From NCBI GenBank assembly GCA_963714275.1, contig CAVQNT010000006.1, forward strand, positions 364,149 through 428,148: a stretch of 64,000 nt of DNA, given 5' to 3'. This document shows positions 1,899-49,283 of the stretch, one piece after another; position 1 is the stretch's first letter, and every line of letters starts with the position of its first letter. The position numbers and the translations under genes were made by a program. The notes below the pieces were generated by a model. That model had not been told where the DNA came from. It was given only the letters and a program-made list of their open reading frames with translations, and did not search any database. The stretch is from Candidatus Bathyarchaeota archaeon (lineage in GTDB: Archaea > Thermoproteota > Bathyarchaeia > Bathyarchaeales > DTEX01).

Positions 1899-2210
1899 AT
1901 GTTGATAACTGACCAAAGGCGACCAAGGACCATCTGGGGTGAACTTGAGGCTGGGTTAGGAACCGGACCCAGGTTCAGAGTGTTGCTGCATTTAGCGTTG
2001 CATCCGGAGGAATCCTTCACAAAATACGCATTAGTCAAAGCAACTGGGCTGAGGACTCCAGCTGTAACGGAGCAGATAGAAAGGCTTTCAGAGCTTGGGT
2101 GGATCAAAAGGCATGAGTTATTTCCAGCCAAGCATCAAATATGCCTAAACAACATAGTTGCCAGACTCGTTCATGACCTTTTTTGCAGTTTTAGAGGTGT
2201 CAAAGCATAA
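1899..2210 (+). CDS. winged-helix DNA-binding protein
   Basis: FTKYALVKATGLRTPAV...IERLSELGWI HTH-wing pattern. Confidence 0.7.
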   Translation: MLITDQRRPRTIWGELEAGLGTGPRFRVLLHLALHPEESFTKYALVKATGLRTPAVTEQIERLSELGWIKRHELFPAKHQICLNNIVARLVHDLFCSFRGVKA

Positions 2211-2225
2211 CAAGCCAGAAAGAAA

Positions 2226-2453
2226 ATGGAGGAAGTGTGTTTGAGGATTTATCACCGTGTTTTGAAGCAGCAGTACCGTAAGAAAGGATTTTATGAGTAT
2301 GAACTGGTCGCTGTGCCCATTCCAAAAAAGTATAATGAATTCATGAAGCCCTTTCTTGACAAGAACCTCGAAATATCCGTCCAAGTTCTCCCGCCCCCAC
2401 AAGAAGGATTCATGATGGTTTTGAAGCCCAAAAAGAGCTCTAAACCCCCGTAA
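2226..2453 (+). CDS. small basic hypothetical protein
   Basis: 75-aa ORF directly after the wHTH gene; YEYE..VPIPKKY. Confidence 0.55.
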   Translation: MEEVCLRIYHRVLKQQYRKKGFYEYELVAVPIPKKYNEFMKPFLDKNLEISVQVLPPPQEGFMMVLKPKKSSKPP

Positions 2454-2458
2454 AAACG

Positions 2459-2620
2459 TTTCTACATGTAGAAAAATGCCCTTCTAAAACCAGAAAAAAC
2501 CATGCCTTGCAAGCTGGAACAGCAACAGTTTAAACATAAAAATGATTAATCTCCTTATATAGCTGGAATTTTCTACATGTAGAAAAAGTTTGCCTTATAG
2601 TGTTTTTCTACGCGTAGAAA
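2459..2620. promoter_or_regulatory. three palindromic operator-like sites TTTCTACRYGTAGAAA
   Basis: perfect 16-18 bp palindromes at 2459-2474, 2569-2586 and 2605-2620, lying between wHTH genes. Confidence 0.75.
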
Positions 2621-2746
2621 CGAATTCACCGCAGCTTGCACGAAAAATATGATACATAAACCTGTGTAAAAAGCTCAAAAACCCCAAGCCAGAGAATTCC
2701 TCACTCAGGCAGCCTTGATGTCTTAAGACAGTCTGCTTAAGGGCTT

Positions 2747-3142
2747 GTGGGGGACATGACAGGAAATGGGAAACCACGACTATCCGTCTTCAAGGGTATA
2801 GAAGCAAGACTGAACAGAATTATCCTTCTTATTCTTGGCAGGGAATGTTGTTTGAACATCTGGCAAGTTTACAAGAGAGTAAGAGAAACCCGAGGTTTTC
2901 GGCACCTCAGATACCATGTTATTAACAGACGCATAAGGGATCTGGAGCAGGAAGGATTCATAGAAGTAACGATGGTAAAAGAGACACCGCAAGGACAAAA
3001 AGTAAAATATTATCAGCCAACCACGAAAACCTACCTTGCTTTCCTCCTGGATGCCATTAACCTTGACCAACTCATACAATCAGCAAACAACACAGACATC
3101 ATCACATTACTCGCAGCCCTATCAGCCACAGCAATGTCTTAG
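2747..3142 (+). CDS. winged-helix transcriptional regulator
   Basis: LNIWQVYKRV...YHVINRRIRDLEQEGFI...KYYQPT; the start may be the ATG at 2757. Confidence 0.7.
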   Translation: MGDMTGNGKPRLSVFKGIEARLNRIILLILGRECCLNIWQVYKRVRETRGFRHLRYHVINRRIRDLEQEGFIEVTMVKETPQGQKVKYYQPTTKTYLAFLLDAINLDQLIQSANNTDIITLLAALSATAMS

Positions 3143-3273
3143 CGAGCTCAGCTATTGGATTAAATCGATTTTTCACAAGTTTTTTGGATTGAATCGAGTA
3201 AGGCATTATTAGTGAGCTAGCGATAATTTCTTATTTCTAACCAAACATACAATTAATAGAGGAATGAATTATA

Positions 3274-4083
3274 ATGGTTAAATGTTCGAAGTGTGGGTTT
3301 GACATCTTCGCTAAGAGTGCAGCTTTCTGCGTTAATTGTGGGGCACCCATTGAAAGGAAGACGACTGATGCTGATGTATCGAAGCTTAGCGCGCTACCGA
3401 ATAAGCAGGGAAAAAATGCAAAATCTAGGATTATTGAAGAGTTATCAAATAATCTAATCTCCTATAACAAAGAAATTGCTGAAATTGAGAAGTTTTCTGG
3501 AGAGAGTCTGAAAATATTCGCAAAAAATATTGAAGGAGACAAGAAGGATCAAAAAGAGCTTAAGCAATTCCAGCCACAATGCAAAGATTATAAGGACCCA
3601 GAAGGATATGAGCGGGATTACAGGAAATACAAACTTATGATAGAAGAGTTCATCAAAGATGCAGAAAAATTAGAGCAAGAATTGAAAACAGAAGTTAAAA
3701 AGGCTAATGTGTCCGCAGAGAATTATAAAAAACTTTACAACAATATCTCGGATGATAAAAAATTACTAGATTGGGTAAAGAAGTTAGAGCCAACAAGCAT
3801 ACTTCAAGACCTAGAAGGGAACTATACTAATCTAGTGCAAGAAGCGAATAGGAAAAAGGAAAAACCTTGTGAACTCTGCGACGAAGCAAACAAATTGATG
3901 GAAGACTTAAAAAAATGTATAGAAGATTTTCAGCTATTGAGCAATGATACCCATGAATGGCGCGAGGATACCCAAATGGTGGAGAAAAAAGGAATGATAC
4001 CAGACACACCGAGAAGAGAGGAAGTAAGAACAGGCCGGTATAGATGTGAAAACTGTGGTCAGGTTAGTTTCAAGCCAGATTGA
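3274..4083 (+). CDS. zinc-ribbon / coiled-coil protein
   Basis: N-terminal CSKC..CVNCG, long heptad-rich region, internal CELC, C-terminal CENCG; AT-rich. Confidence 0.7.
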   Translation: MVKCSKCGFDIFAKSAAFCVNCGAPIERKTTDADVSKLSALPNKQGKNAKSRIIEELSNNLISYNKEIAEIEKFSGESLKIFAKNIEGDKKDQKELKQFQPQCKDYKDPEGYERDYRKYKLMIEEFIKDAEKLEQELKTEVKKANVSAENYKKLYNNISDDKKLLDWVKKLEPTSILQDLEGNYTNLVQEANRKKEKPCELCDEANKLMEDLKKCIEDFQLLSNDTHEWREDTQMVEKKGMIPDTPRREEVRTGRYRCENCGQVSFKPD

Positions 4084-4935: not shown

Positions 4936-6160
4936 ATGAATGGGCAGGGGAGTGGCTGGCTTCCACAGCTCCGTCAACGCATTCTTTTCACCAAAGCAGG
5001 TTCAAACCCCAGATGGGAAGTCCGACATGCATAGCGTCGGCCTGCACCAGCCCCCCATATGCCCAGAATGTGGCTCATCCAAAGCCTGGAAAGATGGGTT
5101 TAGACATGCAGATCAAGGTCTAGTGCAAAGATGGCTCTGCAGAAGCTGCGGAAAAAGGTTTAGCCAATCAAGCCTAACCAATAAAAAGGAGGACCAGCAC
5201 ACTTTAATGTACCAAGTATGCGTTGCTGACGGAGCTACGAAAAACTTGGACACAGTAGAAACCCGAGAAGATGAGGCTAAGCGGGAAGCCACACCAACTT
5301 TAGAATTTGCATGGAAACAAAAGAAACGTGGATTATCTGATTCGACTATAATGACAAGAACATATAGACTTAAAGTGTTAATGCAAAAAGGAGCAGACCT
5401 TTACAATCCTGATAGTGTAGAAACAGTTTTAGCGACGAGCTCATGGACACAAGCAAATAAACAATTCTTCATCATGGCTTATCATTCGTTCTGTAAAACT
5501 ATGAACATATCTTGGATACCTGTTAAAGTCAAATATGAACCGAAACAGCCATTCATACCTTTAGAAACAGAGATAGATCAATTAATAGCAGGTTGCGGAA
5601 AGAGAACAGCCACATTCTTACAAACATTGAAAGAAACAGGTGCAAGAAGCGGAGAGGTCGCTAAGCTCAAGTGGACTGACGTAAACGAAAAAAACAACAC
5701 CATAGCCATAAACGATCCAGAGAAAAACAGTAACTCCAGAACCCTAAAAGTTTCAAGTAAATTAATAGCCATGTTAAACGCCATGCCAAAAAGCAGTATC
5801 TTCGTATTCTGCACACACGTAAGATCAATTTACGGCGCATTCTCAAGACAGAGAAATAAACTGTCAAGAACCCTTCAGAATCCAAGAATCAAGCAAATAC
5901 ACTTTCATACCTTAAGGCATTGGAAAGCCACAATGGAATACCACAGAACCCGAGACATACTTTACGTGAAACATCTATTAGGACATAAACGATTAGAGAA
6001 CACAGAAGGTTATACACACTTAATAGACTTTGAATCTGATGAATATTGCGTATCACACGCTAAAACCTTAAAAGAAGAAAATACACTCTTAGAAACAGGC
6101 TTTGAGTTTATACGATATTCTCAAGAGGATAAAGTAGCCATATACCGAAAGAGAAAGTAG
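4936..6160 (+). CDS. tyrosine recombinase/integrase with N-terminal zinc ribbon
   Basis: CPEC..CRSC ribbon; catalytic R (TGARSGE), K, HxxR (HTLRH), LGH, Y. Start is 4936 if the BHB intron is spliced, otherwise 4940 or an internal ATG. Confidence 0.92.
4941..5065 (+). other. bulge-helix-bulge motif enclosing a candidate 106-nt mRNA intron (4953-5058)
   Basis: TGGGCA-GGGG-AGT-GGCTGG ... CCAGCC-CCCC-ATA-TGCCCA: 6+4+6 Watson-Crick pairs with two 3-nt bulges in canonical geometry. Confidence 0.65.
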
Positions 6161-6219
6161 GAAAAGACGTGTTGATAACGAAAAAAGCATGCTACAAGAG
6201 CATTCATGCGTGATGAGAC

Positions 6220-7378
6220 ATGGCGTTGATTGATTTACGAAGCCAAAAAGTGGCAAAAACCAAGGATGAAATGATTAAACATCTGAAAAGTTTCCGTCTG
6301 GAACCCCGTTTCTCAGCAGGAGTGTGGTTCTTTTTTCCGGGAGGAAGCAGGTTCCACGAAGCATTCATAGAGAAAGGCTCAATCCAAGACATACTAGATA
6401 AAGTTGCAGCTCTCTACGACCGTGGCGTGGTTGATTCCAGCTTTGGTCTGGAAGCCCATTTCCCAAACGAAGTAAACGATGAGCTCATTGACAAGTACAA
6501 GAGTCTCCAGAAAGAAACGGGCATAAAGCTCGATTACCATAGTTCCCAACCTTTTCTATGAGAAGACGTTTGAGTTTGGTTCCCTCTCCAACCCGAACCC
6601 GAAGGTCAGAAGGAAAGCCATCGACAGAACCATCAAGTCTCTTGAACTCAACAAAGAACTGAATACAGAATTCAGTATTGTTTGGCCTGGCGGGGATGGC
6701 TATGAAAATCCAGCGGGAACCGAGTTCTACCTCATGTGGGACAACTTCGAAAAAGGATTAGCGGAAGCCATGGACGCCGTTCCTGGTGTAAGGGTCGCCA
6801 TTGAACCTAAGCCCTACGAACCCAGAGGAAACAACATCTACCGAAACACGGCGAACGGAATCCTCATGACCAGAAACGTCGAAGCCCTATTTTCATCCAA
6901 GGAAAATAAAAGATTACTCAGTGAAGGTCATGCATTAGTTGGATTGAATCCGGAAGTCGGTCACGTCCTGATGGGGCACGAGGAACTGGCGTATTCCTTC
7001 GCGTCCATCCTCCGGGAAGGCAGACTAGCCCACACGCACTGGAACAGCCAGCCTTTAGGCAATTACGATCAGGACTTAAACGTCGGAGTCTTAGGGCTTG
7101 ACCAAATGTTTGCCACGTTGTTTGTCCTGAGAATGTACGGGTATAGGTGCAGGTTTGGAATAGACATCAATCCGGAAAGGATGCCTGTGGAAAAGGCTTT
7201 GGTCCTGAACATCAATGCGCTTAGAGCTGCCTGCGACCGTGTGAACGAGGTGGACTGCGACAGACTCGTTGAAGCCATGCATAGTCCTGAACAGAACAGA
7301 GGCGTAGTTGAAGACGTGATGACGAGAGCCCTAGCTCCGCAGTCGACGCGCCTCATTAACCTCGACAATGTAGACTAG
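6220..7378 (+). CDS. xylose-isomerase-like TIM-barrel sugar isomerase (one apparent frameshift near 6530)
   Basis: WPGGDG, IEPKPYEPR, NPEVGH, HWNSQ..YDQD motifs; two ORFs joined by a 1-nt correction. Confidence 0.8.
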
Positions 7379-8346
7379 CTAAGACTTTTTCTGCAACCTG
7401 AAAATCATTCTTTGCTTCATCCACGGAGCCAACTCCGACCATGCAGGCGTCCACTTCGACTTTTTTGAAAACGTAGGTTAGTGCTTCCTCAGGCGGGATT
7501 CTGCCCCCAGCAAACGGTTTGATGGCGACTACGAGTTTTCCCTGTTTTTTCGCATCTTTAATGGACGTTTCCGCTATTTTCTGCGTTGGAAACATCATGG
7601 CGCCAAGTTTGTTAACTGGCGTAATGAATCCATCATACCCCTTAACGAATCTTTTAGAGATTAATTGATGGGACGCTCCAATATGGTGTGAACCTAATAA
7701 GACGTGATGTCCCGTTTGACTGGTCTTATCAAGGAGCTCCTCAAGTAAGTCTATCCGCGAGATTGCTAGGAAATCGGTTCCTGAGCCGGGTTCAATCCAG
7801 CCTACATTGTAGTCATTGAATTCATTAATCGATGCTTCCCAAACTTTCCAGTTGACCTTCAAATCATTTACGAGCTTATCGTGTTTATACGATTTTGCTG
7901 AATTGAGTCCTTCCTTCCATCCTTGTCGGTAGTTCAGGATTGGGTCTTCGAGGTATCTTTGCGTAATTATATTTCCGTATTGCCTAGCCTCATGTTCCAA
8001 ATGGGTTTTCCATCTTCGGTAGTCGTCTACTCTTTTTCCTTTGAACCTGAACGGCACGTCGATGCATGGTATGAGCCAAATCTGCTTTTCGTCCTCAGCC
8101 TCGATTTCTTTTACTGCGTCAAGGTAGTTTGGGGCAAGAGGGTTGAAGGTTCGGCTTGAGGCAGCAAAGAACTTCACGTCGTGGTTCAGGGCGGTTCTGA
8201 TGACTTTCTTCGTTTCAGCCTTGTTTCGGAATCTTTCATTGTATTCGCTGTCTTTAGTTGTGCCTTGGTAGCCTGACTCCAAGCATAGGAAGGTTGCCTA
8301 GAATTATCCTGTGCTTCCTCAGAATTTCGGTGGATGCTAAGGTCAT
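7356..8346 (-). CDS. hypothetical protein with aldo/keto-reductase-like C-terminus (frameshift near 8270)
   Basis: PVNKLG, AIKPFAGGRIPPEEAL.YV, MVGVGS..EA. Confidence 0.6.
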
Positions 8347-40872: not shown

Positions 40873-41894
40873 TTATGGTTTTAACATGATTTTAAGGGTC
40901 TTTCCCTTCTTTTCATGCATCAGTTCGAAGCCTTCTTGCGTTTTTTCCAGAGGCAATATGTTCGTTATTAAGGGTTTCACATCGATCTTGCGGTTTACTA
41001 TGTAACTAAAGCCTCTTCTGAAATCGTCCGAAGCGTAGGCGTAAGAGCCTCTAATCTGAAGTTCTCTAGACACAATAGACAAAACATTCAAAGTCATGGT
41101 TTTCGACATCATTCCCACAACAGTCAGCTTTCCCCCAATCGCTAACATATTTATTCCTTGCTGAACCGTTGCTTCTAAGCCTACAGCTTCGAAAACGACC
41201 TCCGCTCCTGAACCGTTAGTTAATTCAATTATTCTTGAGACAGGGTCTTCAGTCATTGAGTTAATTGTTATGTCTGCGCCTAAGGTTTTGGCAAAATCTA
41301 ACCTGTAATCAACAACGTCTGTTACAATGAGTCGTCCTGCGCCTGCTGCCTTTGCTGCTTGCAGAATCGACAACCCGATTATGCCTGCTCCGATGACGAC
41401 GACGGTGTCCCCAAGTTTAACATCCGTGTTGTTAACCGCGCGTAAAGCCACAGAAAGCGGCTCAGTCATTGCTCCTTCCTCGTAAGTCACATGGTCTGGC
41501 AGCACATAACAATTCAACGCTGGGACAGACTACATACTCAGCGAAAGCCCCGCCTGTGTGCAACCCAAACAGCTTTACGTTGCGGCAAACGTTGCCCTGA
41601 CCGCGGACGCAAGGTGTGCATACGCCGCACCGTTTAAGTGGGTCAACGGTAATCCTTTCGCCCAACTTGAGGTCTTTCACGTCTTTCCCGATTTCTGCCA
41701 CTTCACCTGTGAATTCGTGGCCCATGACAAGCGGCGGCGTCCTTCTTTGGGAGACTCCTTCGTATGCGTGGAGTTCCGAACCGCATATTCCCACAGCCTG
41801 AACCTTGACTAAAACTTCGTTGTTTCTTATTTTTGGCTTAGGCATGTCTTCGATTCTGATGTCTTTTCCGCCGTACCAAACAGTCTGCTTTCAT
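40873..41894 (-). CDS. zinc-dependent (sorbitol/threonine-type) dehydrogenase (two frameshifts)
   Basis: GICGS, GHEF.G, CxxCxxCx7C, GAGIIG. Confidence 0.88.
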
Positions 41895-42041: not shown

Positions 42042-43233
42042 ATGAAGTCCGTTGCCAGAACTCTTTTAAAGAAAATTCGTGAACACAATCCGCAACCTAA
42101 CGTTGAACGGTTGAACGCTGCTCTTTCAAGGTCAAGGATTCCGGACCGCGTGCCGTTCATGGAGATTTTCGCCGACAACGAGGTGATGGCTGCGGTTTTG
42201 GGCAAACGTCTGAACTATTTTGGTAAAAAGATGCGAAGCCGAAGACAGTGGGAGGAACGGACGCTTGCTCTGATGGAGTTTCATGAAATGTTGGGTTATG
42301 ACTATGTCCGCGCTGACACACAAGATTACGAAGCTGCAGTCAAGCAGTCCAAGATTGACGAGAAACTTTTGGCAGCAGGCGAAGTTGGCACCAGAGCCTA
42401 CAGGTACAAAACTGCAGACAAAGCTGCTGAGCTCAACCGTGGAGAAAGGACGTGGGCAAACGAGGCTACGGGCGTAATCGCAGACTGGAAAGACTTTAAT
42501 TCGTATCCCTGGGAGGAGCCTGAACAGATTGCTGAGGAAGGAAACGCTGGGTTGGAATGGGTATGCGACCACGTTCCTTCAGGCATGGGTGTTGTCACGG
42601 GTGCCGGTGCGGTTCTTGAGCCTGTGATGTGGATGATGGGCATAAAGAACTTCTACGTTAGCCTTTACAAGCAGAAAGACCTCGTTGAAGCCATGTTTAG
42701 GAAGGCTACTGAAATAAATGTTGCCCGTTTCAAGCTCTGCAGCTGACACAAGCAGAAAAATTGTGGCTTTCTGGGGGTCCGACGATTGGGGTTACAAGAA
42801 CGGGCTTATGATTTCGCCTTCAATGATGAGACGGTGGGTCTTTCCGGTTCATAAGAAAATGGCTGAGATGGCGCATTCCAAAGGCTCGCTTTACGTTTTG
42901 CATTCATGTGGCGATCTTAAGGTTGTAATGGACAACATAATAAACGATGTTAAAGTGGACGCCAAGCACTCGTTTGAGGACACTTACCTTCCAGTGACCG
43001 AAGCCAAGAAAATCTATGGACACCGAATTGGCTTAATCGGAGGCATCGACATGGACGTGTTTTCTAGGTGTAAACCGAAAGAAGTCCAAGAGTACGTAAG
43101 CCGAGTTTTGAAAGCATGCAAAATAGGTGGAGGGTATTGCCTAGGAAGCGGAAACACGGTTGCCAATTATGTTCCATTAGAAAACTTTTTGACGATGCTC
43201 AATGTTGGATTGAACGAAGGCTGGTACACCTAA
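42042..43233 (+). CDS. UroD/MtaA-like family protein (frameshift near 42740)
   Basis: PDRVPF.E, DD.GYK, LHSCG, HSFED, GGID.D, LGSGN. Confidence 0.85.
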
Positions 43234-43515
43234 AAAAAGTCGTAAACCGTTTTTTGTGTAAACACCTGTTGCATGCCTTTAAGATATGATAGCTGAGCTG
43301 AGTTAACTACATATGTAATAACATGGGACAAATGGAAATGATACTGCTTTCTTTGTAATATTATGGATTACTTGCTAGCTGACTAAAATAGGTTGGTTAG
43401 AAAACATTCATCTCAGTTATAAAAATAAGTCTGTAAAAACTTTGTTATAAGAGAATTTCCATTTAATTGACTGTTGTGTTGGTTTAATAAAGTTTTGATT
43501 TTTTGTTCTCCTTTT

Positions 43516-44856
43516 TTAGCCGCTGCAGACGTATTGTTCTTGTCCCGTTTTTAGGGGGCAGCCTCCTCCACAGATGTTTAGGGTTGGGCAGTCGTGGCAT
43601 TTTTCTGGGACGTACTTTCGGGCTCTGATCTCAACGCATAAAGGATTTCGCCAAATCTTCTTCCAACTGTCTTTCAGGATGTTGCCCAATGGCGCGAAGT
43701 AGCTTTGGCATGGAATAACCGTTCCATCAGGTTCGATGCACATGCTTATGCGGCAGGCGCTGCAGCTCTTTATTCCCAGCTCGACCTGAAGCGGATTGAG
43801 GACACAGTACTCCGTGGGCGTGTACCACGTGAACTCCATGCCCAGCCTTCGGGCGTGGTTTCTGATTTTTGTCAGAATAGGCTCCAACAAAGCTTCGTCT
43901 AAGGCAAACTCTTTCGCGACTTCTGGAGCTTTCCCTGAGTAGATGAGGCTATTGCAGGCGAACTGTTTCAGCCCAAGGCTGCTGAGGAAGTCAATCGTCT
44001 TCAAGATGTCTCGGACGTTGTATTGGTTCAGAGTCGTGTTGCTAAGCGTGTAGATTGGCGAGGCGATGGCGTTCTTGAGCCCTTGAACTGTTTCTTCCCA
44101 GCTTCCCTTGACTCCCGTGATCTTGTCGTGAACCTTTGGGTCGTAGGACTCAACCGTCACTTGAACGTGGTCCAAGCCAGCATCAACGAGAGAATTGAAG
44201 TAGGACTCTTCCCTGAGTCTGCGACCGTTCGTGACGAGTCCGCTGACTAACCCGATCTCTTGGGTGTAGGCGACGAGCTTAGGGAGGTCGTCTCTCAACG
44301 TCGGTTCGCCGCCTGTGAAGACCACGTGAGGGATGCCAAGCTTCAAAAGTTTGTCCATCACTTTTCGCCATTCTTCGGTTGTCAGCTCCTTGGTCTCTCT
44401 TGGTCCCCCAGCATAACAATGAAGACACTTATTGTTGCAGTGGTAGGTTATGGCTAAGTCCATTCTATAGGGCGCGCTTAACTCCTTCTGGAAGGGTTCC
44501 ATCTTGTCAACGCCGAGGTAAGAGACGGGGCACACGTCAGGCGTCTTCGCGAAAGTGTTAACAACAAACAAGACATCTTGGTAATCCTTGAGCGCGGTTT
44601 CAGCGTCAACCTTGTACCGTTTTTGGACTTTTCTGATTACTTCTTCTTCTGTCTCGTTCTCTATGAAGGAGTGGACGTATTCTGCTGCTGTGCGGTTGAG
44701 GAAAAGGACACGGGACCCGTTGATGATGAGTACGCCGTCGCCATCCTCTTCAAAGCGAAGATGAAGACGAAGCCCCCGATAGTCGCCGTTCTCAACCTTA
44801 AGGTGATGTAGAGAAACCTTCCGTTTCGAACCTAAAATCTTTCCCAGTTTACTCAA
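43516..44856 (-). CDS. radical SAM/SPASM protein with N-terminal PqqD/RRE-like region
   Basis: CNNKCLHC, FTGGEP, SPASM cysteines C..C(IPC)..CHDC.....CGGGC; N-terminal VLFLN.TAA...helical domain. Confidence 0.9.
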   Translation of the reverse strand: MSKLGKILGSKRKVSLHHLKVENGDYRGLRLHLRFEEDGDGVLIINGSRVLFLNRTAAEYVHSFIENETEEEVIRKVQKRYKVDAETALKDYQDVLFVVNTFAKTPDVCPVSYLGVDKMEPFQKELSAPYRMDLAITYHCNNKCLHCYAGGPRETKELTTEEWRKVMDKLLKLGIPHVVFTGGEPTLRDDLPKLVAYTQEIGLVSGLVTNGRRLREESYFNSLVDAGLDHVQVTVESYDPKVHDKITGVKGSWEETVQGLKNAIASPIYTLSNTTLNQYNVRDILKTIDFLSSLGLKQFACNSLIYSGKAPEVAKEFALDEALLEPILTKIRNHARRLGMEFTWYTPTEYCVLNPLQVELGIKSCSACRISMCIEPDGTVIPCQSYFAPLGNILKDSWKKIWRNPLCVEIRARKYVPEKCHDCPTLNICGGGCPLKTGQEQYVCSG

Positions 44857-46474
44857 CTACCTTGCACCTCCATGGGCACAGGCGCACGCACAACTCACGC
44901 AGGCACATGCGCACGCGCAGTGAGCACAGGCACACACGCAACTTGGGGAGCCTCTAACTGAACCTTGGCTTACTGGCGTTGGAGCCTGAACTATGCGGTT
45001 TGTGAAGGCTTGAACGTTTTTCACCATACTGTTCGCGGATGTTTGTAAGCCTTTGACGATGTTGTTAGCAAAGTCTTGTCCAGGTATGGGTTGGCTCGGA
45101 GTCTTAGCAGGAACAGGGATTCCTGCTGGGACTGCTACTGGACCAGATGGGTTTTGAGGACCATGCCAGTACCACCACCATCCGGGGCTGGGAACAATGA
45201 CAATGTTTGATGGGAAGGCGTCTTTGAACTTGTTGTCGAACCTGTCATCTGCGAGGAGCCACTCTATGTTTTGGTCCAGAGCATCCCCCTTTAATTCAGG
45301 TGTGCCAGCCTGCGTAACTTGGTCCCAAGCCTTGTTGACCACGGATTGATAGTAGTTCACTGTGTCGTTCCTCGAGTAACCTCGCATCTTCTGGTCAACA
45401 TTGTCCCTTAGGTCCAAGAAGGTCCGTGCGAGCTTCACTTCGTCTAGGCTTCCATCTGGCTGTAAAGCTTCTAAATATTCAATTTCGTAATATCGCAGAT
45501 CGGGAGGAGACTCAACAACGCTCTTTAGCCTTTGAATCTTGATAAGAGGGTCAGTTTCAGTGACCATGACAACCCGTTTATAGAGAAGCCCAAAAAGAAC
45601 CATTGAAAGAACGCGAACAGGCTTCAAGTCGAGGACAACAGCTGCCTCAACAGATGTGAGATTCCGCGCCGCACCAAGCGCCTCAACAGTCTATCAGTGG
45701 CTTTACATAATCGACTTTTCTGAAGTTCGAAACGATCACCATTACAACGCCAACTGCAGTCAATATTGCTGCTCCAATAATAACATAAGTCAGAGTGTCG
45801 GGGCCTGGAAGATTTATGTAATTTTCCGGGAAAGAAACTCCTACCAAAAATTCTTGACCAGGCGACCAATTATTTCTTTCCCAATAGACAACAAGGTTGC
45901 TATCCTGTGAATAGACATTATCAAAGGTCACGTTGTCGAAGTACATTACTTCGTTACTGTTGACCCCACTTGGAAGCACTATTGCCACGCGAATATTGCC
46001 TATTGTGCCCTGAGCATCAGGAAAGGTTGTGGGGTAAAATTGCATTCCATAATATCCTTGGTTCGTCTGATCTGGGGAAAGCATTTCGGGAACCATGGCA
46101 TATACTAGAAAAGTGTTAGGTTGGTTCAAAACTGGTCGGGAGTTTAAGGTCACATCAATAACGAAGTTATCGCCACTTGAAACATCTGTGTAGTCGAGGG
46201 TATTGCCTGAAAGGTCCTGAACTGAAGTGATTTGGAACCCTCCTTTAGGCATTCCCACAGTAACGATTCCTTGAGGATTTCCACCCATATAGGTCATTGT
46301 AATGTTATACATGAGGTTGATGGAACGATCCGTGTTTACCGTGATTTGAACCCATACTTTGTCTACAGTATACGTTATGGGATTCTGAGCTTTATTTACA
46401 GACAAAGGAACACAGAGAACAAGTGCGACAAGAAAGACTAAGACTAGGCTGAAGGACCGATTCTTTGTTACCAT
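44857..46474 (-). CDS. membrane protein with extracellular DUF2207-like domain and Cys-rich C-terminal tail (frameshift near 45690)
   Basis: signal peptide, beta-rich domain, TM helix, ends SCVCACAHCACACACVSCACACAHGGAR; removing one base joins the two ORFs. Confidence 0.8.
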
Positions 46475-46824
46475 GTCGGCTCCTCTGTTAACTCGAACTT
46501 GCTATTGCAGTAGCTGCAGGTGAGATACGGTTTTCCAGTTATTATTTCAACTTTGGTTGGGTCCACAACTGCGTTACATGTCGGGCAACGAACTTCTTTC
46601 ACAGCCACGGGTCCTGTTACGATTAGGGTTTGCTTGATTTCTATCGGCTTCTTTTCTCTTGTGAAGATTATGATCAGGATTGCGACTCCGAGGAAGACTA
46701 GTCCTTCGAAGAAATATGTTATCCCGAGGTTCGAGGACATTATGAAAATGATTGCCAAAAAAATGAGGATGACAGAAGCGGCGTAGTAAGATATTTCAGT
46801 GGTCCTTTGGCCATCTTTCGTCAA
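46468..46824 (-). CDS. two-TM protein with C-terminal zinc ribbon
   Basis: two hydrophobic helices, CPTC..CSYC, ends EEPTW. Confidence 0.8.
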   Translation of the reverse strand: MTKDGQRTTEISYYAASVILIFLAIIFIMSSNLGITYFFEGLVFLGVAILIIIFTREKKPIEIKQTLIVTGPVAVKEVRCPTCNAVVDPTKVEIITGKPYLTCSYCNSKFELTEEPTW

Positions 46825-46885
46825 CCCGCCAGTAACAACGCCTGCTGTTGTTCGAATGCTTCTGCTTCAATTTCTTCTCTGAGGA

Positions 46886-47863
46886 TTATGCGAACTTTTC
46901 TCCGCATTCAGGGCAGAACTTGGAGCTCGTAGGAATTGAGTGACCGCATTTGGGGCATTTCATTATGGCGGCTGAGGGAGGCGTAAGAGAGGTTCCGCAT
47001 TCAGGACAGAACTTTGATGTAGCTGGAACATGTGCGTTGCATTTGGGGCATATCACTAGTACGGCAGTGAGCGCTTGTGTCTGACCCTGAGGGGTCATAA
47101 TTTGAGGTATGAGCACCATGCCCGTTCCCAAGGCTGCTCCGCCACCACCGGACTTCCCAAGCTCTGCAGCAGCTGTTTTCACCGTTTCCATGCGTAGGAC
47201 CGTGTCCGCTGAAGTTCCACCAGTTTTAAGCCAAAATAGCCGTTCACGATACTCAGGTGTGGTGTCGATGCCTTCGAAACGTAGATCGGTTAGTTCGATG
47301 CCTAAGCGTTGGAAGTAGTCTAAGACCGAATTTTTAACAATCACAGACGTCTCGTTAAGCCTAGTGAAGACAGTGACCAAGTCGTAGTGGGAAAGTTCTC
47401 CGATTATCTTTTCGTTTAGGAAGCCTCGGAGGAAGTTGTTGACATCTTCTGTTGTGTAGACGTTTTGTCCGCCGACGACTTCGTTCACGAACAGCGATGC
47501 GTTTTCGATTTTGAACAGGAACTGCCCAAATATTTGAAGCGGAGCCAACTCAGTAGTTTGTGCGCGTGTACCCCATTTGCCATTAAAAACTTTAGTGCTG
47601 ATGTAGATGACTGCTGCTTTAAATGGCTTGTTGCTGCCGAACCCTGCAAGACGCGTCAGCAAACCTGTAAGCAAAGGCAGATTCAACGTTGTCAGTGTAT
47701 GCCTGCCAGCATTGAAAACATCGTAGGATTTGCCATCCCTAAAGAACACTGCCATTTCGTACTCATGCACGATAAGTTGGGCGCCCCATGTAATATCTTC
47801 GTTTGGGTACCTCCAAATTATATCGTCTGGACCAGCATTTGTCCATTCTATAACTTGTGGCAT
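46886..47863 (-). CDS. SPFH (band 7) domain protein with double zinc ribbon
   Basis: IIWRYP, QLIV.E...AVF.RDGK, GRHTL.T.NLP, CPKC..KFCPECG twice. Confidence 0.9.
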   Translation of the reverse strand: MPQVIEWTNAGPDDIIWRYPNEDITWGAQLIVHEYEMAVFFRDGKSYDVFNAGRHTLTTLNLPLLTGLLTRLAGFGSNKPFKAAVIYISTKVFNGKWGTRAQTTELAPLQIFGQFLFKIENASLFVNEVVGGQNVYTTEDVNNFLRGFLNEKIIGELSHYDLVTVFTRLNETSVIVKNSVLDYFQRLGIELTDLRFEGIDTTPEYRERLFWLKTGGTSADTVLRMETVKTAAAELGKSGGGGAALGTGMVLIPQIMTPQGQTQALTAVLVICPKCNAHVPATSKFCPECGTSLTPPSAAIMKCPKCGHSIPTSSKFCPECGEKFA

Positions 47864-47864
47864 G

Positions 47865-48401
47865 TTAATTCACTCCTAAGATTACTTCTTCACGTTTATC
47901 AAACGTGTCCTCTAAACTTTCAAGTTTGTCAGTAACATTCTGAAGCCGAGTCTTCAGGTTCGCAGTTACGCCGCTGGCTAATTCTGCTTTCAAAGCGTCG
48001 ATTTCAGTAGCCAATGCATTTATGCCTTCTAGAAGCTGGTTATCGAAATCTATCATACGATCAAGGTTTTTCTCTCTGACTTTGACAGCGTCAAAAAAGC
48101 CGCTATACCCGTAAGACGCATGATTAACTTTCTCAACGAGACGATCCATCTTAGCTAATAGGCGGTCCATTTCAGTCAGGACGTCGAAGTAACGGCGGTC
48201 AGCCAACTTCTGCGAAATTTCCCTGAGGTTAGTCTTAGCCGTGGACAGTTTCAGATATAGGTGATTCCTGATTAGCCTGTCGGATTCTCTGCGGAGTTCC
48301 TTCTCTTTGTAGCCTTTGAACCCCGGAACCTTATCCATAACCTTTTCTGAAAGCCGCATTTCTTCCTTGGCTTTCCCGTAAACGTCTTTTCTTTCGCTCA
48401 A
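47865..48401 (-). CDS. conserved helical hypothetical protein (first gene of the SPFH operon)
   Basis: PGF.GY..KE.RRE.D.L.R, YGYSGFFDAVK, L...D; likely TTG start at 48401. Confidence 0.75.
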   Translation of the reverse strand: MSERKDVYGKAKEEMRLSEKVMDKVPGFKGYKEKELRRESDRLIRNHLYLKLSTAKTNLREISQKLADRRYFDVLTEMDRLLAKMDRLVEKVNHASYGYSGFFDAVKVREKNLDRMIDFDNQLLEGINALATEIDALKAELASGVTANLKTRLQNVTDKLESLEDTFDKREEVILGVN

Positions 48402-48525
48402 AGATTTTCCCTCTCCAATATCTGTTAAAGTCGAGAGATTTAAAGTATAACCCTGTTTTTGGGCATTTTTAATAATTTTCCCGAGCAGCCATACCATTTC
48501 GCGTCATTAAACCATCTTCTGACTG

Positions 48526-48628
48526 GTCTGATTTGTGTAATATCCAACTTTCAATTTTGTGTAACATACGGTGCTGTCTTCGACCTGTCTGTTTTGTGTG
48601 ACATTTGAATTTTCCGTTTGTATAACAA
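48526..48628 (+). repeat. dispersed ~103-bp repeat, copy B
   Basis: GTCTGATTTGTGTAA...GACCTGTCTGTTTTGTGTGACA...TTTTCCGTTTG. Confidence 0.85.
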
Positions 48629-48905
48629 TAGCCTATCTATCTATTTGCAGTGTTAGCTAGCTATAGCCAAATCTTCTAAGATACTCAGGATGAGACATCA
48701 CATCAATAACATGGGGATAAATGCCTTCTTTCAGCCATTTATGTTTTGTTCAATGTTAAACATCAATTTTTTAGTAGCTAGATAATAATAACCGTCGTCT
48801 GTGAGCTAGCTGAGCTGAAGTTTATGAAAGCTAGCTGACTTTTCGTCTTTTTCGCTTTTTTCTTGACGAGATAAGCTTAATATATCTTGGTTTCTTTATC
48901 AAGGT

Positions 48906-49020
48906 GAAGTAGGATGGGTCTAAAGTAAGAAGAATTCAGAAAGTTCAAGTTGCTTTAACTTCTTTTTGTCTTCTCCTATACTTTGTCGCGATCTTACTTC
49001 TCGTTGACCAGAAGCGAGGT
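48906..49020 (+). promoter_or_regulatory. structured 5' leader of the TRAM gene
   Basis: GAAGTAGGAT/ATCTTACTTC outer stem with nested pairings, plus a small hairpin overlapping the GAGGTG SD. Confidence 0.45.
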
Positions 49021-49027
49021 GAAACAT

Positions 49028-49283
49028 ATGGCATACAGAGATAGAGGTAGCGGTTTTCGGAGCAACAGACTTCAGCTACAAGGCTCCAGTGGAGCTGGGA
49101 AAAGTCTACGAAGCTGATATTGTAGAGATGAGTCAAAGGGGAGACGCGGGAGTAGCTAAGGTTCAGGGCTTCGTGGTCTTCGTCTCGGAGGCTAAACCTG
49201 GTGATCACGTCAAGATTAAGATTACCAAGATTGGCAGACGATATGCTACAGCTGAAGTTGTTAAAACTGAAGATGAAAAGTAG
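49028..49283 (+). CDS. single-TRAM-domain RNA chaperone (frameshift near 49069)
   Basis: APVE.G..Y...I......GD.GVAKV.GFVVFV...KPGD.V.I.I. Confidence 0.9.

What the first reader, a model, noticed from the sequence alone, without database searches (positions are those of the whole stretch)
43516..48401. SPFH + Cys-tail membrane protein + radical SAM/SPASM operon: RiPP-like modification of a membrane protein?
Seen: five tightly packed co-oriented genes: helical protein, SPFH-double zinc ribbon, 2-TM zinc ribbon, a ~540-aa single-pass protein ending in SCVCACAHCACACACVSCACACAHGGAR (10 Cys in 21 residues), and, with zero gap, a radical SAM/SPASM enzyme with a PqqD/RRE-like N-terminus. Established: RRE-bearing SPASM enzymes install thioether or C-C crosslinks on Cys-rich peptides (ranthi/sactipeptides), and SPFH proteins scaffold membrane complexes. 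I saw no short precursor ORF. Inference: the substrate is the cytoplasmic (CA)n tail of the large membrane protein, i.e. a precursor fused to a receptor-like protein, or the tail is a metal/Fe-S cluster site matured by the enzyme. I know of no characterised system with this layout.
Basis: partly seen in the sequence, partly recalled or inferred. Interest (0 to 1): 0.82.

Follow-up and report, generated by a model that had tools for sequence, protein, structure and literature searches.

The report
Radical-SAM enzyme paired with Cys-Ala membrane tail
A membrane protein of an uncultured archaeon ends in an almost unchanging run of alternating cysteines and alanines and is nearly always encoded directly in front of a peptide-modifying radical-SAM enzyme, in many anaerobic bacteria and archaea, which points to an untested chemical modification of a whole membrane protein.

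Summary
The gene row is real, with one correction. In this window the ~540-aa protein is split into two frames (263 + 277 aa). Contigs from three public runs lack one base at 45690, and relatives have one 525-545 aa frame, so the break is probably an assembly error.

The conserved unit has three genes, not five: a 2-TM zinc-ribbon protein, a DUF2207-like single-pass membrane protein ending in the (Cys-Ala)n tail, and an RRE/radical-SAM/SPASM enzyme. SPFH and the helical gene accompany it only in a few close relatives.

- In 401 genomes of the class, 105 have the tail protein, 102 the enzyme and 101 both.
- 99 of 101 tail ends have the enzyme directly downstream.
- A DNA-pattern scan found the same cassette in Chloroflexota, Acidobacteriota, Asgard archaea and others, with the enzyme within 400 nt in 91 of 99 loci. 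In the other 8 genomes it lies elsewhere.
- The enzyme model resembles SkfB and SuiB, including the N-terminal recognition domain.

The most likely reading is that the enzyme modifies the cytoplasmic tail, perhaps with thioether crosslinks. No chemistry is shown. I found no publication on this system. The nearest precedent is CrpC/CrpA (2026). Earlier notes of this scan report the same system in other genomes.

The parts
43516..44856 (-). RRE/radical-SAM/SPASM enzyme, 446 aa, the probable tail-modifying enzyme
   Evidence: Pfam Radical_SAM 9.1e-29, SPASM 2e-11, PqqD 1.5e-4. CX3CX2C at C140/C144/C147 and 7 further invariant Cys in 53 orthologues. AF2 pLDDT 91. Best solved matches are SkfB Z 29.2 and SuiB Z 28.1.
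44545..44811 (-). N-terminal RRE-like (PqqD-like) domain of the enzyme, residues 16-104
   Evidence: Four strands then three helices in the model. PqqD match at residues 46-96, 22.5 bits against a cut-off of 23.4. The SuiB alignment covers it.
44860..44943 (-). (Cys-Ala)n tail, the last 28 residues, 10 Cys in blocks of 3 + 4 + 3, then a Gly-Gly-x-Arg end
   Evidence: Sequence read. Same pattern in 120 of 120 closest homologues. 83 DNA versions encode 3 peptide versions of the 15-codon core in 84 genes.
44857..45690 (-). C-terminal (cytoplasmic) half of the tail protein, a 277-aa stop-to-stop frame
   Evidence: It matches residues 261-534 of the intact relative at 82% identity.
45683..46474 (-). 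N-terminal half of the tail protein: signal or anchor helix, beta-sandwich ectodomain, TM helix (263 aa)
   Evidence: The model of the intact relative has strands at 33-216 and a TM helix at 227-251. The ectodomain resembles ribophorin I/Ost1, Z 15.7 and 15.0. 9 of 46 family members touch Pfam DUF2207.
45690..45690 (.). Frameshift site: one base present here that contigs of three public runs lack
   Evidence: 'Left out 1' at 45690 in X1, X2 and X4. Frames read.
46468..46824 (-). 2-TM protein with a C-terminal zinc ribbon, the third core gene; it overlaps the start of the tail gene by 7 nt
   Evidence: A homologue lies upstream of the tail gene in 71 of 78 loci across phyla. No family reaches its curated cut-off.
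46886..47863 (-). SPFH/Band-7 protein with a double zinc ribbon; a lineage-specific neighbour, not core
   Evidence: Band_7_1 1.1e-30, DZR 2.1e-12. Adjacent in 5 loci of close relatives, not found in the flanks of L016 and L018-L020.
47865..48497 (-). Helical protein, whose start is perhaps at 48401 as in relatives; a lineage-specific neighbour
   Evidence: Only sub-threshold matches (NCBIfam LIMLP_15305 family, 67.5 bits against a cut-off of 210). It travels with the SPFH gene.

Best explanation
The window holds a conserved three-gene cassette of anaerobes: a small 2-TM zinc-ribbon protein, a DUF2207-like single-pass membrane protein, and an RRE/radical-SAM/SPASM enzyme.

The membrane protein has a ribophorin-I-like beta-sandwich outside the cell and a helical domain inside. 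It ends in a flexible linker and an almost invariant (Cys-Ala)n tail.

Shown: the gene pairing, the conservation of the tail at the protein level, and the enzyme's RiPP-maturase architecture.

Inferred: the tail lies in the cytoplasm, where the oxygen-sensitive enzyme can reach it. The enzyme docks on the membrane protein through its RRE, perhaps on the conserved helical segment just upstream of the linker. It then modifies the cysteines of the tail by radical chemistry. The most likely product is intramolecular thioether crosslinks, sactionine- or ranthionine-like. That would turn a floppy thiol-rich tail into a fixed structure on the inner face of the membrane.

The frameshift in this window is most likely an assembly error, so the system is probably intact in the organism.
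For: Pairing:
- In 401 genomes of the class, 105 have the tail protein, 102 have the enzyme orthologue and 101 have both.
- 99 of 101 tail ends have the enzyme downstream on the same strand within 300 nt.
- Of 119 loci found by a tail DNA pattern in bacteria and archaea, 99 have at least 600 nt downstream, and 91 of those have the enzyme within 400 nt.
- The 8 exception genomes all hold an orthologue elsewhere.
- In G033 both genes are broken together.

Selection on the peptide:
- 120 of 120 closest homologues keep the 10-Cys pattern although the rest of the protein drops to about 50% identity.
- 103 of 105 cluster representatives of at least 500 aa end in a Cys-Ala tail.
- 84 genes give 83 DNA versions but only 3 peptide versions of the 15-codon core.

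Enzyme:
- CX3CX2C and 7 further invariant Cys.
- Pfam Radical_SAM, SPASM and borderline PqqD.
- Model pLDDT 91, with strands followed by three helices at the N-terminus.
- Nearest solved structures are the peptide maturases SkfB (Z 29.2), SuiB (28.1) and CteB (25.7).

Topology:
- Signal or anchor helix, ectodomain and one TM helix, followed by basic residues.

No rival substrate:
- No Cys-rich small ORF was found in the only gap of the row.

Precedent:
- CrpC, an RRE/rSAM/SPASM enzyme, installs thioethers on the 28.8-kDa protein CrpA (PMC13692751; abstract and sections 8, 12, 13, 14 read).

Frameshift:
-, plus two neighbouring genes that are split here but whole in the relative.
Against: - No biochemical datum exists for this family. 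Modification, binding and product are all inferred from gene linkage and fold.
- The PqqD match is below Pfam's cut-off.
- The enzyme reaches no curated NCBIfam cut-off among the 25 of 74 families shown, so its reaction cannot be read from a family name.
- The tail offers few of the acceptor residues (Asp, Asn, Thr, Gln) seen in known ranthipeptide motifs. It contains only Ala, Val, Gly, Ser and His.
- A run of alternating Cys could equally serve as a metal or Fe-S ligand set.
- The loci from the pattern scan were chosen by the motif, so their tail invariance is partly circular.
- Related genomes are not independent counts.
- The cassette is not always contiguous (8 of 99 loci).
Confidence: 0.6

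Rival explanations
1. The tail is a metal or iron-sulfur binding site. The alternating Cys lie on one face of a short hairpin or meander and ligate a cluster or metal ions. The radical-SAM enzyme either builds or inserts that cofactor, or is linked for another reason.
For: The tail has 7-10 thiols in 15-21 residues, with two-residue turn-like spacers between the blocks. The system is found in lineages known mainly from anoxic habitats (record titles). The Crp paper notes that most Cys-rich archaeal proteins are predicted to bind metals and suspects that CrpA itself binds metals (PMC13692751, sections 8 and 14).
Against: An RRE and the nearest structural neighbours (SkfB, SuiB, CteB at Z 25-29, against NifB and HydE at Z 17-18) fit a peptide-modifying enzyme better than a cluster-building one. 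The alanines are as invariant as the cysteines, which metal ligation alone does not require. The two readings can both be true: crosslinked first, metal-binding afterwards.
Confidence: 0.2
2. The large protein is an oversized precursor. After modification the tail is cut off and released or exported as a small RiPP natural product.
For: The layout resembles a leader, linker and core, with a conserved segment, a variable Gly/Ser/Pro-rich linker and an invariant core. Chloroflexota cassettes add a methyltransferase, as tailoring clusters do.
Against: Recurrent-neighbour clustering over the fetched loci found no protease or transporter. In two long representatives the Cys-Ala block is internal and about 95 further residues follow it. 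The ectodomain, TM helix and cytoplasmic domain are conserved together with the tail over hundreds of homologues, which is not expected of a mere leader.
Confidence: 0.07
3. The enzyme's substrate is something else: the small zinc-ribbon protein, a lipid or a cofactor. The tail protein would then be only a membrane docking partner.
For: The zinc-ribbon protein is co-conserved (71 of 78 loci). Radical-SAM enzymes acting on lipids appear further down the structure list (GDGT-MAS, Z 21.3).
Against: The zinc-ribbon gene was not found upstream of the tail gene in 7 of 78 loci, whereas the tail-enzyme pairing held in every genome examined. The enzyme gene directly follows the tail's stop codon. The enzyme tree splits along tail type.
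Confidence: 0.08
4. In this particular genome the tail-protein gene is a true pseudogene and the cassette is decaying.
For: The window as assembled has a frameshift at 45690. Joint decay does occur in a relative, G033.
Against: Contigs of three runs from three studies lack the extra base. Both halves are otherwise intact and 57-82% identical to the relative. Two neighbouring housekeeping-type genes are also split here but whole in the relative, which fits indel errors in the assembly.
Confidence: 0.05

Closest known systems
CrpC/CrpA of Methanococcus voltae (PMC13692751, 2026)
   Same: An RRE/radical-SAM/SPASM enzyme with three [4Fe-4S] clusters and seven SPASM cysteines acts on a whole Cys-rich protein encoded beside it, not on a short peptide. 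The cysteines sit in a C-terminal repeat region. Substrate engagement goes beyond a short leader.
   Different: CrpA is a soluble 28.8-kDa protein with ten 17-residue repeats and C-x-x-Q/D motifs, and its recognition part is N-terminal. Here the substrate candidate is a ~540-aa membrane protein with about 2% Cys overall, below that paper's search filter. Its 15-21 residue Cys-Ala tail lacks Asp/Gln acceptors, and a zinc-ribbon membrane protein is co-conserved. The paper assigns CrpC to TIGR04463, which is not among the 25 best NCBIfam matches shown for this enzyme.
Sactipeptide and ranthipeptide maturases with their precursors (SkfB/SkfA, CteB/SCIFF, AlbA/subtilosin, PapB)
   Same: Same domain order and the best structural matches: SkfB Z 29.2, CteB Z 25.7. 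The AlbA NCBIfam model aligns over residues 49-437. The substrates are Cys-rich and are encoded next to the enzyme.
   Different: Those substrates are short, released peptides with N-terminal leaders. All NCBIfam scores lie far below the cut-offs (for example AlbA 72 against 850 bits, SkfB 92 against 300). No export or protease gene recurs here.
SuiB/SuiA (streptide Lys-Trp crosslink)
   Same: The full-length structural alignment includes the RRE (model 18-442 against chain 4-428, Z 28.1).
   Different: It forms a C-C crosslink between Lys and Trp, residues that the tail does not contain.
DUF2207 membrane proteins (Pfam PF09972)
   Same: The ectodomain is a distant relative: 9 of 46 family members match PF09972, best E 6.4e-6. 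Atlas neighbours carry DUF2207. One NCBI record uses the name.
   Different: Neither window half nor the two full-length members tested matches at E <= 0.01. The Cys-Ala tail and its enzyme define a separate branch.
Other Cys-repeat tails on DUF2207-like proteins with their own radical-SAM enzymes
   Same: By those notes, the same logic applies: a membrane-protein tail made of a Cys repeat, coupled to a SPASM enzyme.
   Different: The repeat units and enzyme subfamilies differ. I did not test those notes, and the tail protein here matches no NCBIfam model.

Membership tests
Radical SAM superfamily | CX3CX2C motif for the SAM-binding [4Fe-4S] cluster within a partial TIM barrel | tested here: met
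   C140, C144 and C147 are invariant in 53 orthologues. Pfam PF04055 9.1e-29. The barrel aligns with SkfB, SuiB and anSME.
SPASM subgroup | C-terminal domain with a seven-Cys pattern for two auxiliary clusters | tested here: met
   PF13186 2e-11. C351, C365, C383, C420, C423, C429 and C433 are invariant. The clusters themselves are not testable here.
RRE-bearing RiPP maturases | N-terminal PqqD-like recognition element (three-stranded sheet plus three helices) | tested here: met
   The model has strands at 16-53 and helices at 55-65, 70-81 and 85-104. The SuiB alignment spans the domain. By sequence it is only borderline: PqqD 22.5 bits against a cut-off of 23.4, and 22.9 bits in the Ornatilinea orthologue.
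Sactisynthase / ranthisynthase (thioether-forming) | Demonstrated Cys S to C-alpha or C-beta/gamma crosslink on the substrate | not testable with these tools
   This needs mass spectrometry of the co-expressed substrate.
Curated NCBIfam radical-SAM equivalogs (AlbA, SkfB, PqqE, MftC, NirJ, ScmE, GeoRSP and others) | Score at or above the model's curated cut-off | tested here: not met
   The best is NirJ2 at 145 bits against 500. All 25 shown of 74 are below their cut-offs. The Ornatilinea orthologue gives the same result.
CrpC family (TIGR04463, as named in PMC13692751) | Membership of TIGR04463; neighbouring protein with at least 5-10% Cys | tested here: inconclusive
   TIGR04463 is not among the 25 best families shown of 74, and the remaining 49 were not visible. 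The tail protein has 10 Cys in the last 32 of about 534 residues, roughly 2% overall.
DUF2207 (PF09972) | Match to the N-terminal domain model | tested here: inconclusive
   No hit for the window halves, L013 or L076 at E <= 0.01. 9 of 46 family members match at E <= 1, best 6.4e-6.
SPFH / Band 7 | SPFH domain | tested here: met
   PF13421 1.1e-30 and PF01145 1.1e-15 for 46886-47863. However, the gene is not part of the conserved cassette.

The most novel reading that the evidence does not exclude
The Cys-Ala tail is not an ordinary crosslinked peptide. It is a membrane-tethered scaffold that folds as a hairpin (4 + 3 Cys) or a three-strand meander (3 + 4 + 3 Cys), with one all-cysteine face. 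On that face the radical-SAM enzyme would build a covalent thioether ladder or lock in a metal-sulfur cluster. This would give anaerobic bacteria and archaea a new kind of redox- or metal-sensing module, coupling an extracellular ribophorin-I-like domain to the cytoplasm.
Probability: 0.15. Interest if true: 0.9.

Novelty: new variant of a known kind. Interest (0 to 1): 0.7.

Why it matters
Radical-SAM/SPASM maturases are known almost only from short secreted peptides. One whole-protein substrate, CrpA, was shown in 2026.

Here a second and much more widespread case is suggested. The fixed cytoplasmic tail of a conserved membrane protein is paired with its own enzyme in hundreds of anaerobic lineages of both domains, and no curated family or paper was found for it. 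If the tail is modified, this is a new post-translational modification of membrane proteins, and it gives a function handle on a DUF2207-like family.

One carrier, Ornatilinea apprima, is a named strain (P3M-1) by its record title, and I recall it as cultured. Co-expression in E. coli has a published protocol for the Crp system. The question can therefore be tested directly.

Tried and rejected
- Complex prediction of the enzyme with the last 82 residues of the tail protein, plus three 4Fe-4S clusters and SAM. The verdict was 'no answer' (score 0.02, mark 0.32). This is not evidence either way.
- Expression: no RNA holder was listed among 22 public runs. Nothing follows from that.
- Small precursor ORF: none that is Cys-rich in the 283-nt gap after the enzyme gene. 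The other gaps in the row are 61 nt or less.
- Sigma-70 promoter and terminator scans of 43000-49200 were at chance level and do not apply to archaea.
- Family names:
  - No Pfam or NCBIfam match at E <= 0.01 for either half of the tail protein, the intact relative or the Ornatilinea homologue.
  - Only sub-threshold matches for the zinc-ribbon protein.
  - No PDB sequence relative of the cytoplasmic half at E <= 1.
  - Its only fold match is weak (GOLPH3, Z 7.1).
- Literature: searches for DUF2207 with radical SAM, SPASM with cysteine-rich, tail and membrane terms, radical SAM with Anaerolineae, RiPP and cysteine-rich, DUF2207 alone (listing only) and Cys-Ala or alternating-cysteine terms. 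None gave a paper on this system. One search failed on a term-length rule and was not repeated.
- The Crp paper's supplementary data set of radical-SAM-associated Cys-rich proteins could not be seen and might list this family.
- SPFH as scaffold of the system: rejected as a core part.
- A second enzyme copy in G123 that looked like a counter-example has lost its Cys motifs. The tail-only case G163 is a gene truncated at a contig end.


Full report
**What is in the window**

On the minus strand there is a tight row of ORFs:
- a helical protein (47865-48497);
- an SPFH/Band-7 protein with a double zinc ribbon (46886-47863; Band_7_1 1.1e-30, DZR 2.1e-12);
- a 118-aa protein with two hydrophobic helices and a C-terminal zinc ribbon (46468-46824);
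- a membrane protein;
- a radical-SAM/SPASM enzyme (43516-44856; Radical_SAM 9.1e-29, SPASM 2e-11, PqqD 1.5e-4 at 22.5 bits against a cut-off of 23.4).

Its TAG stop (44857-44859) is followed at once by the enzyme's TTG start.

The membrane protein is not one frame here. It is a 263-aa ORF ending at 45683 plus a 277-aa frame that opens at 45690.

**The frameshift**

- Eight relatives have a single open frame of 528-545 aa.
- Contigs of three public runs from three studies (X1, X2, X4) leave out one base at window 45690.
- Leaving out that base joins the two frames at a point where the reading then lines up with the relatives.
- Two neighbouring genes are also split here but whole in the closest relative: an alcohol-dehydrogenase-like gene (40873-41845) and a URO-D-like gene (42042-43233).

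I therefore read the break as an indel error of the assembly and not as a pseudogene. Only raw reads of the source sample can settle it.

**The tail is under strong selection as a peptide**

- A word-indexed search gave 355 homologues. The 120 listed ones, down to about 50% identity, all have ten Cys in the same 3 + 4 + 3 arrangement followed by Gly-Gly-x-Arg/His. Named ones are from Candidatus Bathyarchaeia.
- An exhaustive HMMER search of 1.84 billion cluster representatives gave 536 hits at E <= 0.001.
  - Of the 150 best, 105 are at least 500 aa long, and 103 of those end in a Cys-Ala tail of 5-10 cysteines.
  - The other two carry the block internally, followed by about 95 further residues.
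  - The shorter hits without a tail look like fragments.
- In 84 genes the 15-codon core occurs in 83 different DNA versions that encode only three peptide versions, using all synonymous codons. The conservation is therefore not a DNA repeat.
- Caveat: most of those 84 genes were found with a pattern that demanded these residues.

**Pairing with the enzyme within the class**

In an even sample of 401 genomes:
- 105 have a match to the tail protein and 102 have an enzyme match at E <= 1e-50;
- 101 have both;
- 4 have only a tail-protein match (two weak, two partial or at contig ends; one is confirmed as truncated);
- 1 has only an enzyme fragment on a short contig;
- 295 have neither.

Of 101 matches that include the tail end, 99 have the enzyme match downstream on the same strand within 300 nt. 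The two exceptions are a gene at a contig end and G033, where both genes are broken. A second enzyme copy in G123 that stands alone has lost its cysteine motifs. Related genomes are not independent, so these are counts and not a test.

**The same cassette far outside the class**

By record title they come from Chloroflexota (68 loci, including the named strain Ornatilinea apprima P3M-1), Bathyarchaeia, other Thermoproteota, Promethearchaeota, Nanoarchaeia, Acidobacteriota, Fermentibacterota, Zixibacteria, Coatesbacteria, Planctomycetota, Bacillota and others.

- 113 loci have an ORF with the motif. In 110 it lies within 7 residues of the C-terminus, and 105 of the ORFs are detectable homologues of the window protein.
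- Of 99 loci with at least 600 nt downstream, 91 have an enzyme homologue within 400 nt.
- All 8 exception genomes hold an orthologue elsewhere, at 41-57% identity and E <= 1e-100.
- The zinc-ribbon membrane protein sits upstream in 71 of 78 loci.
- The bacterial tail is shorter (usually 7 Cys, with an Ala-Gly spacer and a Gly-Gly-Gly-Arg end) and follows a Gly/Ser-rich linker.
- The enzyme tree (53 rows, quick search) splits into a half with the archaeal three-block tail and a half with the bacterial type. The latter includes an Asgard genome, on a long branch. This split is confounded with taxonomy.

**What is core and what is not**

- SPFH and the helical gene accompany the cassette in five loci of close relatives (G001, G002, G004, G005, G010). 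They were not found in the flanks of four other family members.
- Across all fetched loci the only recurrent gene clusters are the tail protein, the enzyme and the zinc-ribbon protein.
- In 27 mostly Chloroflexota loci there is also a class I SAM methyltransferase.
- Chloroflexota also carry a paralogue of the enzyme that keeps the RRE-like N-terminus but has no CX3CX2C and only two cysteines.

**Anatomy of the enzyme**

- In 53 orthologues C140, C144 and C147 are invariant, as are seven further cysteines (351, 365, 383, 420, 423, 429, 433). C109 is nearly invariant.
- The AlphaFold2 model has pLDDT 91. It shows four strands and three helices at residues 16-104, before the barrel.
- The best solved matches are SkfB (Z 29.2, 344 aligned), SuiB (Z 28.1, model 18-442 against chain 4-428, so including SuiB's recognition domain), CteB (25.7), anSME (25.3), ChlB and PqqE. 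NifB and HydE score about 17-18.
- No curated NCBIfam model reaches its cut-off.

**Anatomy of the tail protein**

The model is of the intact relative, pLDDT 84.
- An N-terminal hydrophobic helix.
- A beta-sandwich at 33-216 that resembles ribophorin I/Ost1 (Z 15.7 and 15.0) and the N-domain of M1 aminopeptidases.
- One TM helix at 227-251, followed by basic residues.
- A helical cytoplasmic domain with strongly conserved motifs.
- Two conserved helices at 461-492, then a low-confidence linker and the tail.

With one TM helix after an exported domain, the tail should be cytoplasmic. This is inferred from the sequence and not shown.

**How it most likely works, and the rivals**

Shown: the linkage, the peptide-level conservation, and an enzyme built like a peptide maturase.

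Inferred: the enzyme recognises the membrane protein through its RRE and modifies the tail cysteines. The most likely product is thioether crosslinks, by analogy with SkfB, CteB and the newly described CrpC.

The strict conservation of the alanines as well as the cysteines suggests that both take part, or that the tail must fit a narrow active site. The turn-like two-residue spacers suggest a hairpin or meander with one all-cysteine face. That is my own inference.

The main rival is a metal or Fe-S site, which could also be the purpose of a crosslinked tail. Less likely rivals are:
- a released peptide: no recurrent protease or exporter, and two representatives with an internal block;
- another substrate for the enzyme;
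- a real pseudogene in this genome.

**Comparison with what is known**

The closest published system is CrpC/CrpA of Methanococcus voltae (PMC13692751; abstract and sections 8, 12, 13 and 14 read, and term searches in the text). There an RRE/rSAM/SPASM enzyme installs ranthionine-type thioethers on a 28.8-kDa soluble Cys-rich protein. That paper does not contain the words membrane, transmembrane or Bathyarchaea. Its filter of at least 5% Cys would miss this protein.

Five literature searches found nothing on the present system. The supplements of the Crp paper were not visible.

Earlier notes of this scan (read after my own analysis) describe the same cassette in Asgard and bacterial genomes and reach the same reading. 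They are not independent evidence, but they show that this window is a further instance and not a first sighting.

**Verdict**

It has three core genes rather than five, and one assembly artefact. It is a new variant of a known kind of system, a SPASM maturase with a Cys-rich substrate, with an unusual substrate and a wide, unexplained distribution. The chemistry and purpose remain open and are testable.

Noticed in passing
window 40873-41845 and 42042-43233: An alcohol-dehydrogenase-like gene (127 + 214 aa) and a URO-D-like gene (234 + 171 aa) are each split into two overlapping ORFs here. In the closest relative (L013) they are single frames of 345 and 396 aa. Together with 45690 that makes three frame breaks in about 6 kb, which suggests indel errors in this assembly.
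   Followed up: partly
L013:7249-8853 (model me61320a28b85), residues 30-224: The extracellular domain of the tail protein resembles the luminal domain of ribophorin I/Ost1 of eukaryotic oligosaccharyltransferase (Z 15.7 and 15.0) and the N-domain of M1 aminopeptidases.
   Followed up: partly
L013 model, residues 530-534: The last four residues of the tail protein have pLDDT about 84, while the preceding 30 are under 50. Several structural alignments run from the ectodomain to residue 534, as if the model lays the C-terminus on the beta-sandwich, which should lie on the other side of the membrane. Unexplained, and possibly a modelling artefact.
   Followed up: no
L076:2118-3278 (Ornatilinea apprima) and homologues in many Chloroflexota loci: A paralogue of the enzyme directly downstream keeps the RRE-like N-terminus but has no CX3CX2C motif and only two cysteines. 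It is a probable inactive partner or chaperone.
   Followed up: partly
L025:5292-6044, L065:5977-6744 and 25 further loci: A class I SAM methyltransferase (PF08241, 2e-20) follows the cassette in 27 mostly Chloroflexota loci. It is not present in the window.
   Followed up: partly
L022 (G033:C55), about 5900-7730: In one genome of the same order both the tail gene (one TAG inside) and the enzyme gene (four fragments) are broken. This looks like joint decay of the pair.
   Followed up: partly
L148 (G123:C69) 2134-3420: A second, stand-alone copy of the enzyme (61% identity) has lost the third Cys of the radical-SAM motif and several SPASM cysteines, and it is truncated.
   Followed up: yes
L085:5941-7596 (contig labelled Halobacteria): This tail protein has a CxxC...CxxC zinc ribbon inserted in its cytoplasmic domain. 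No separate zinc-ribbon gene was found, but only 404 nt upstream were available. It may be a fusion of two core parts.
   Followed up: no
P0151, P0199; L037, L119, L136: Variant layouts exist. Two long homologues have the Cys-Ala block internal, with about 95 residues after it. A 190-aa Bacillota protein has the block 34 residues from its end. Two Bacillota loci have a tail ending in Gly-Gly-Gly-Gly-Cys-Thr.
   Followed up: no
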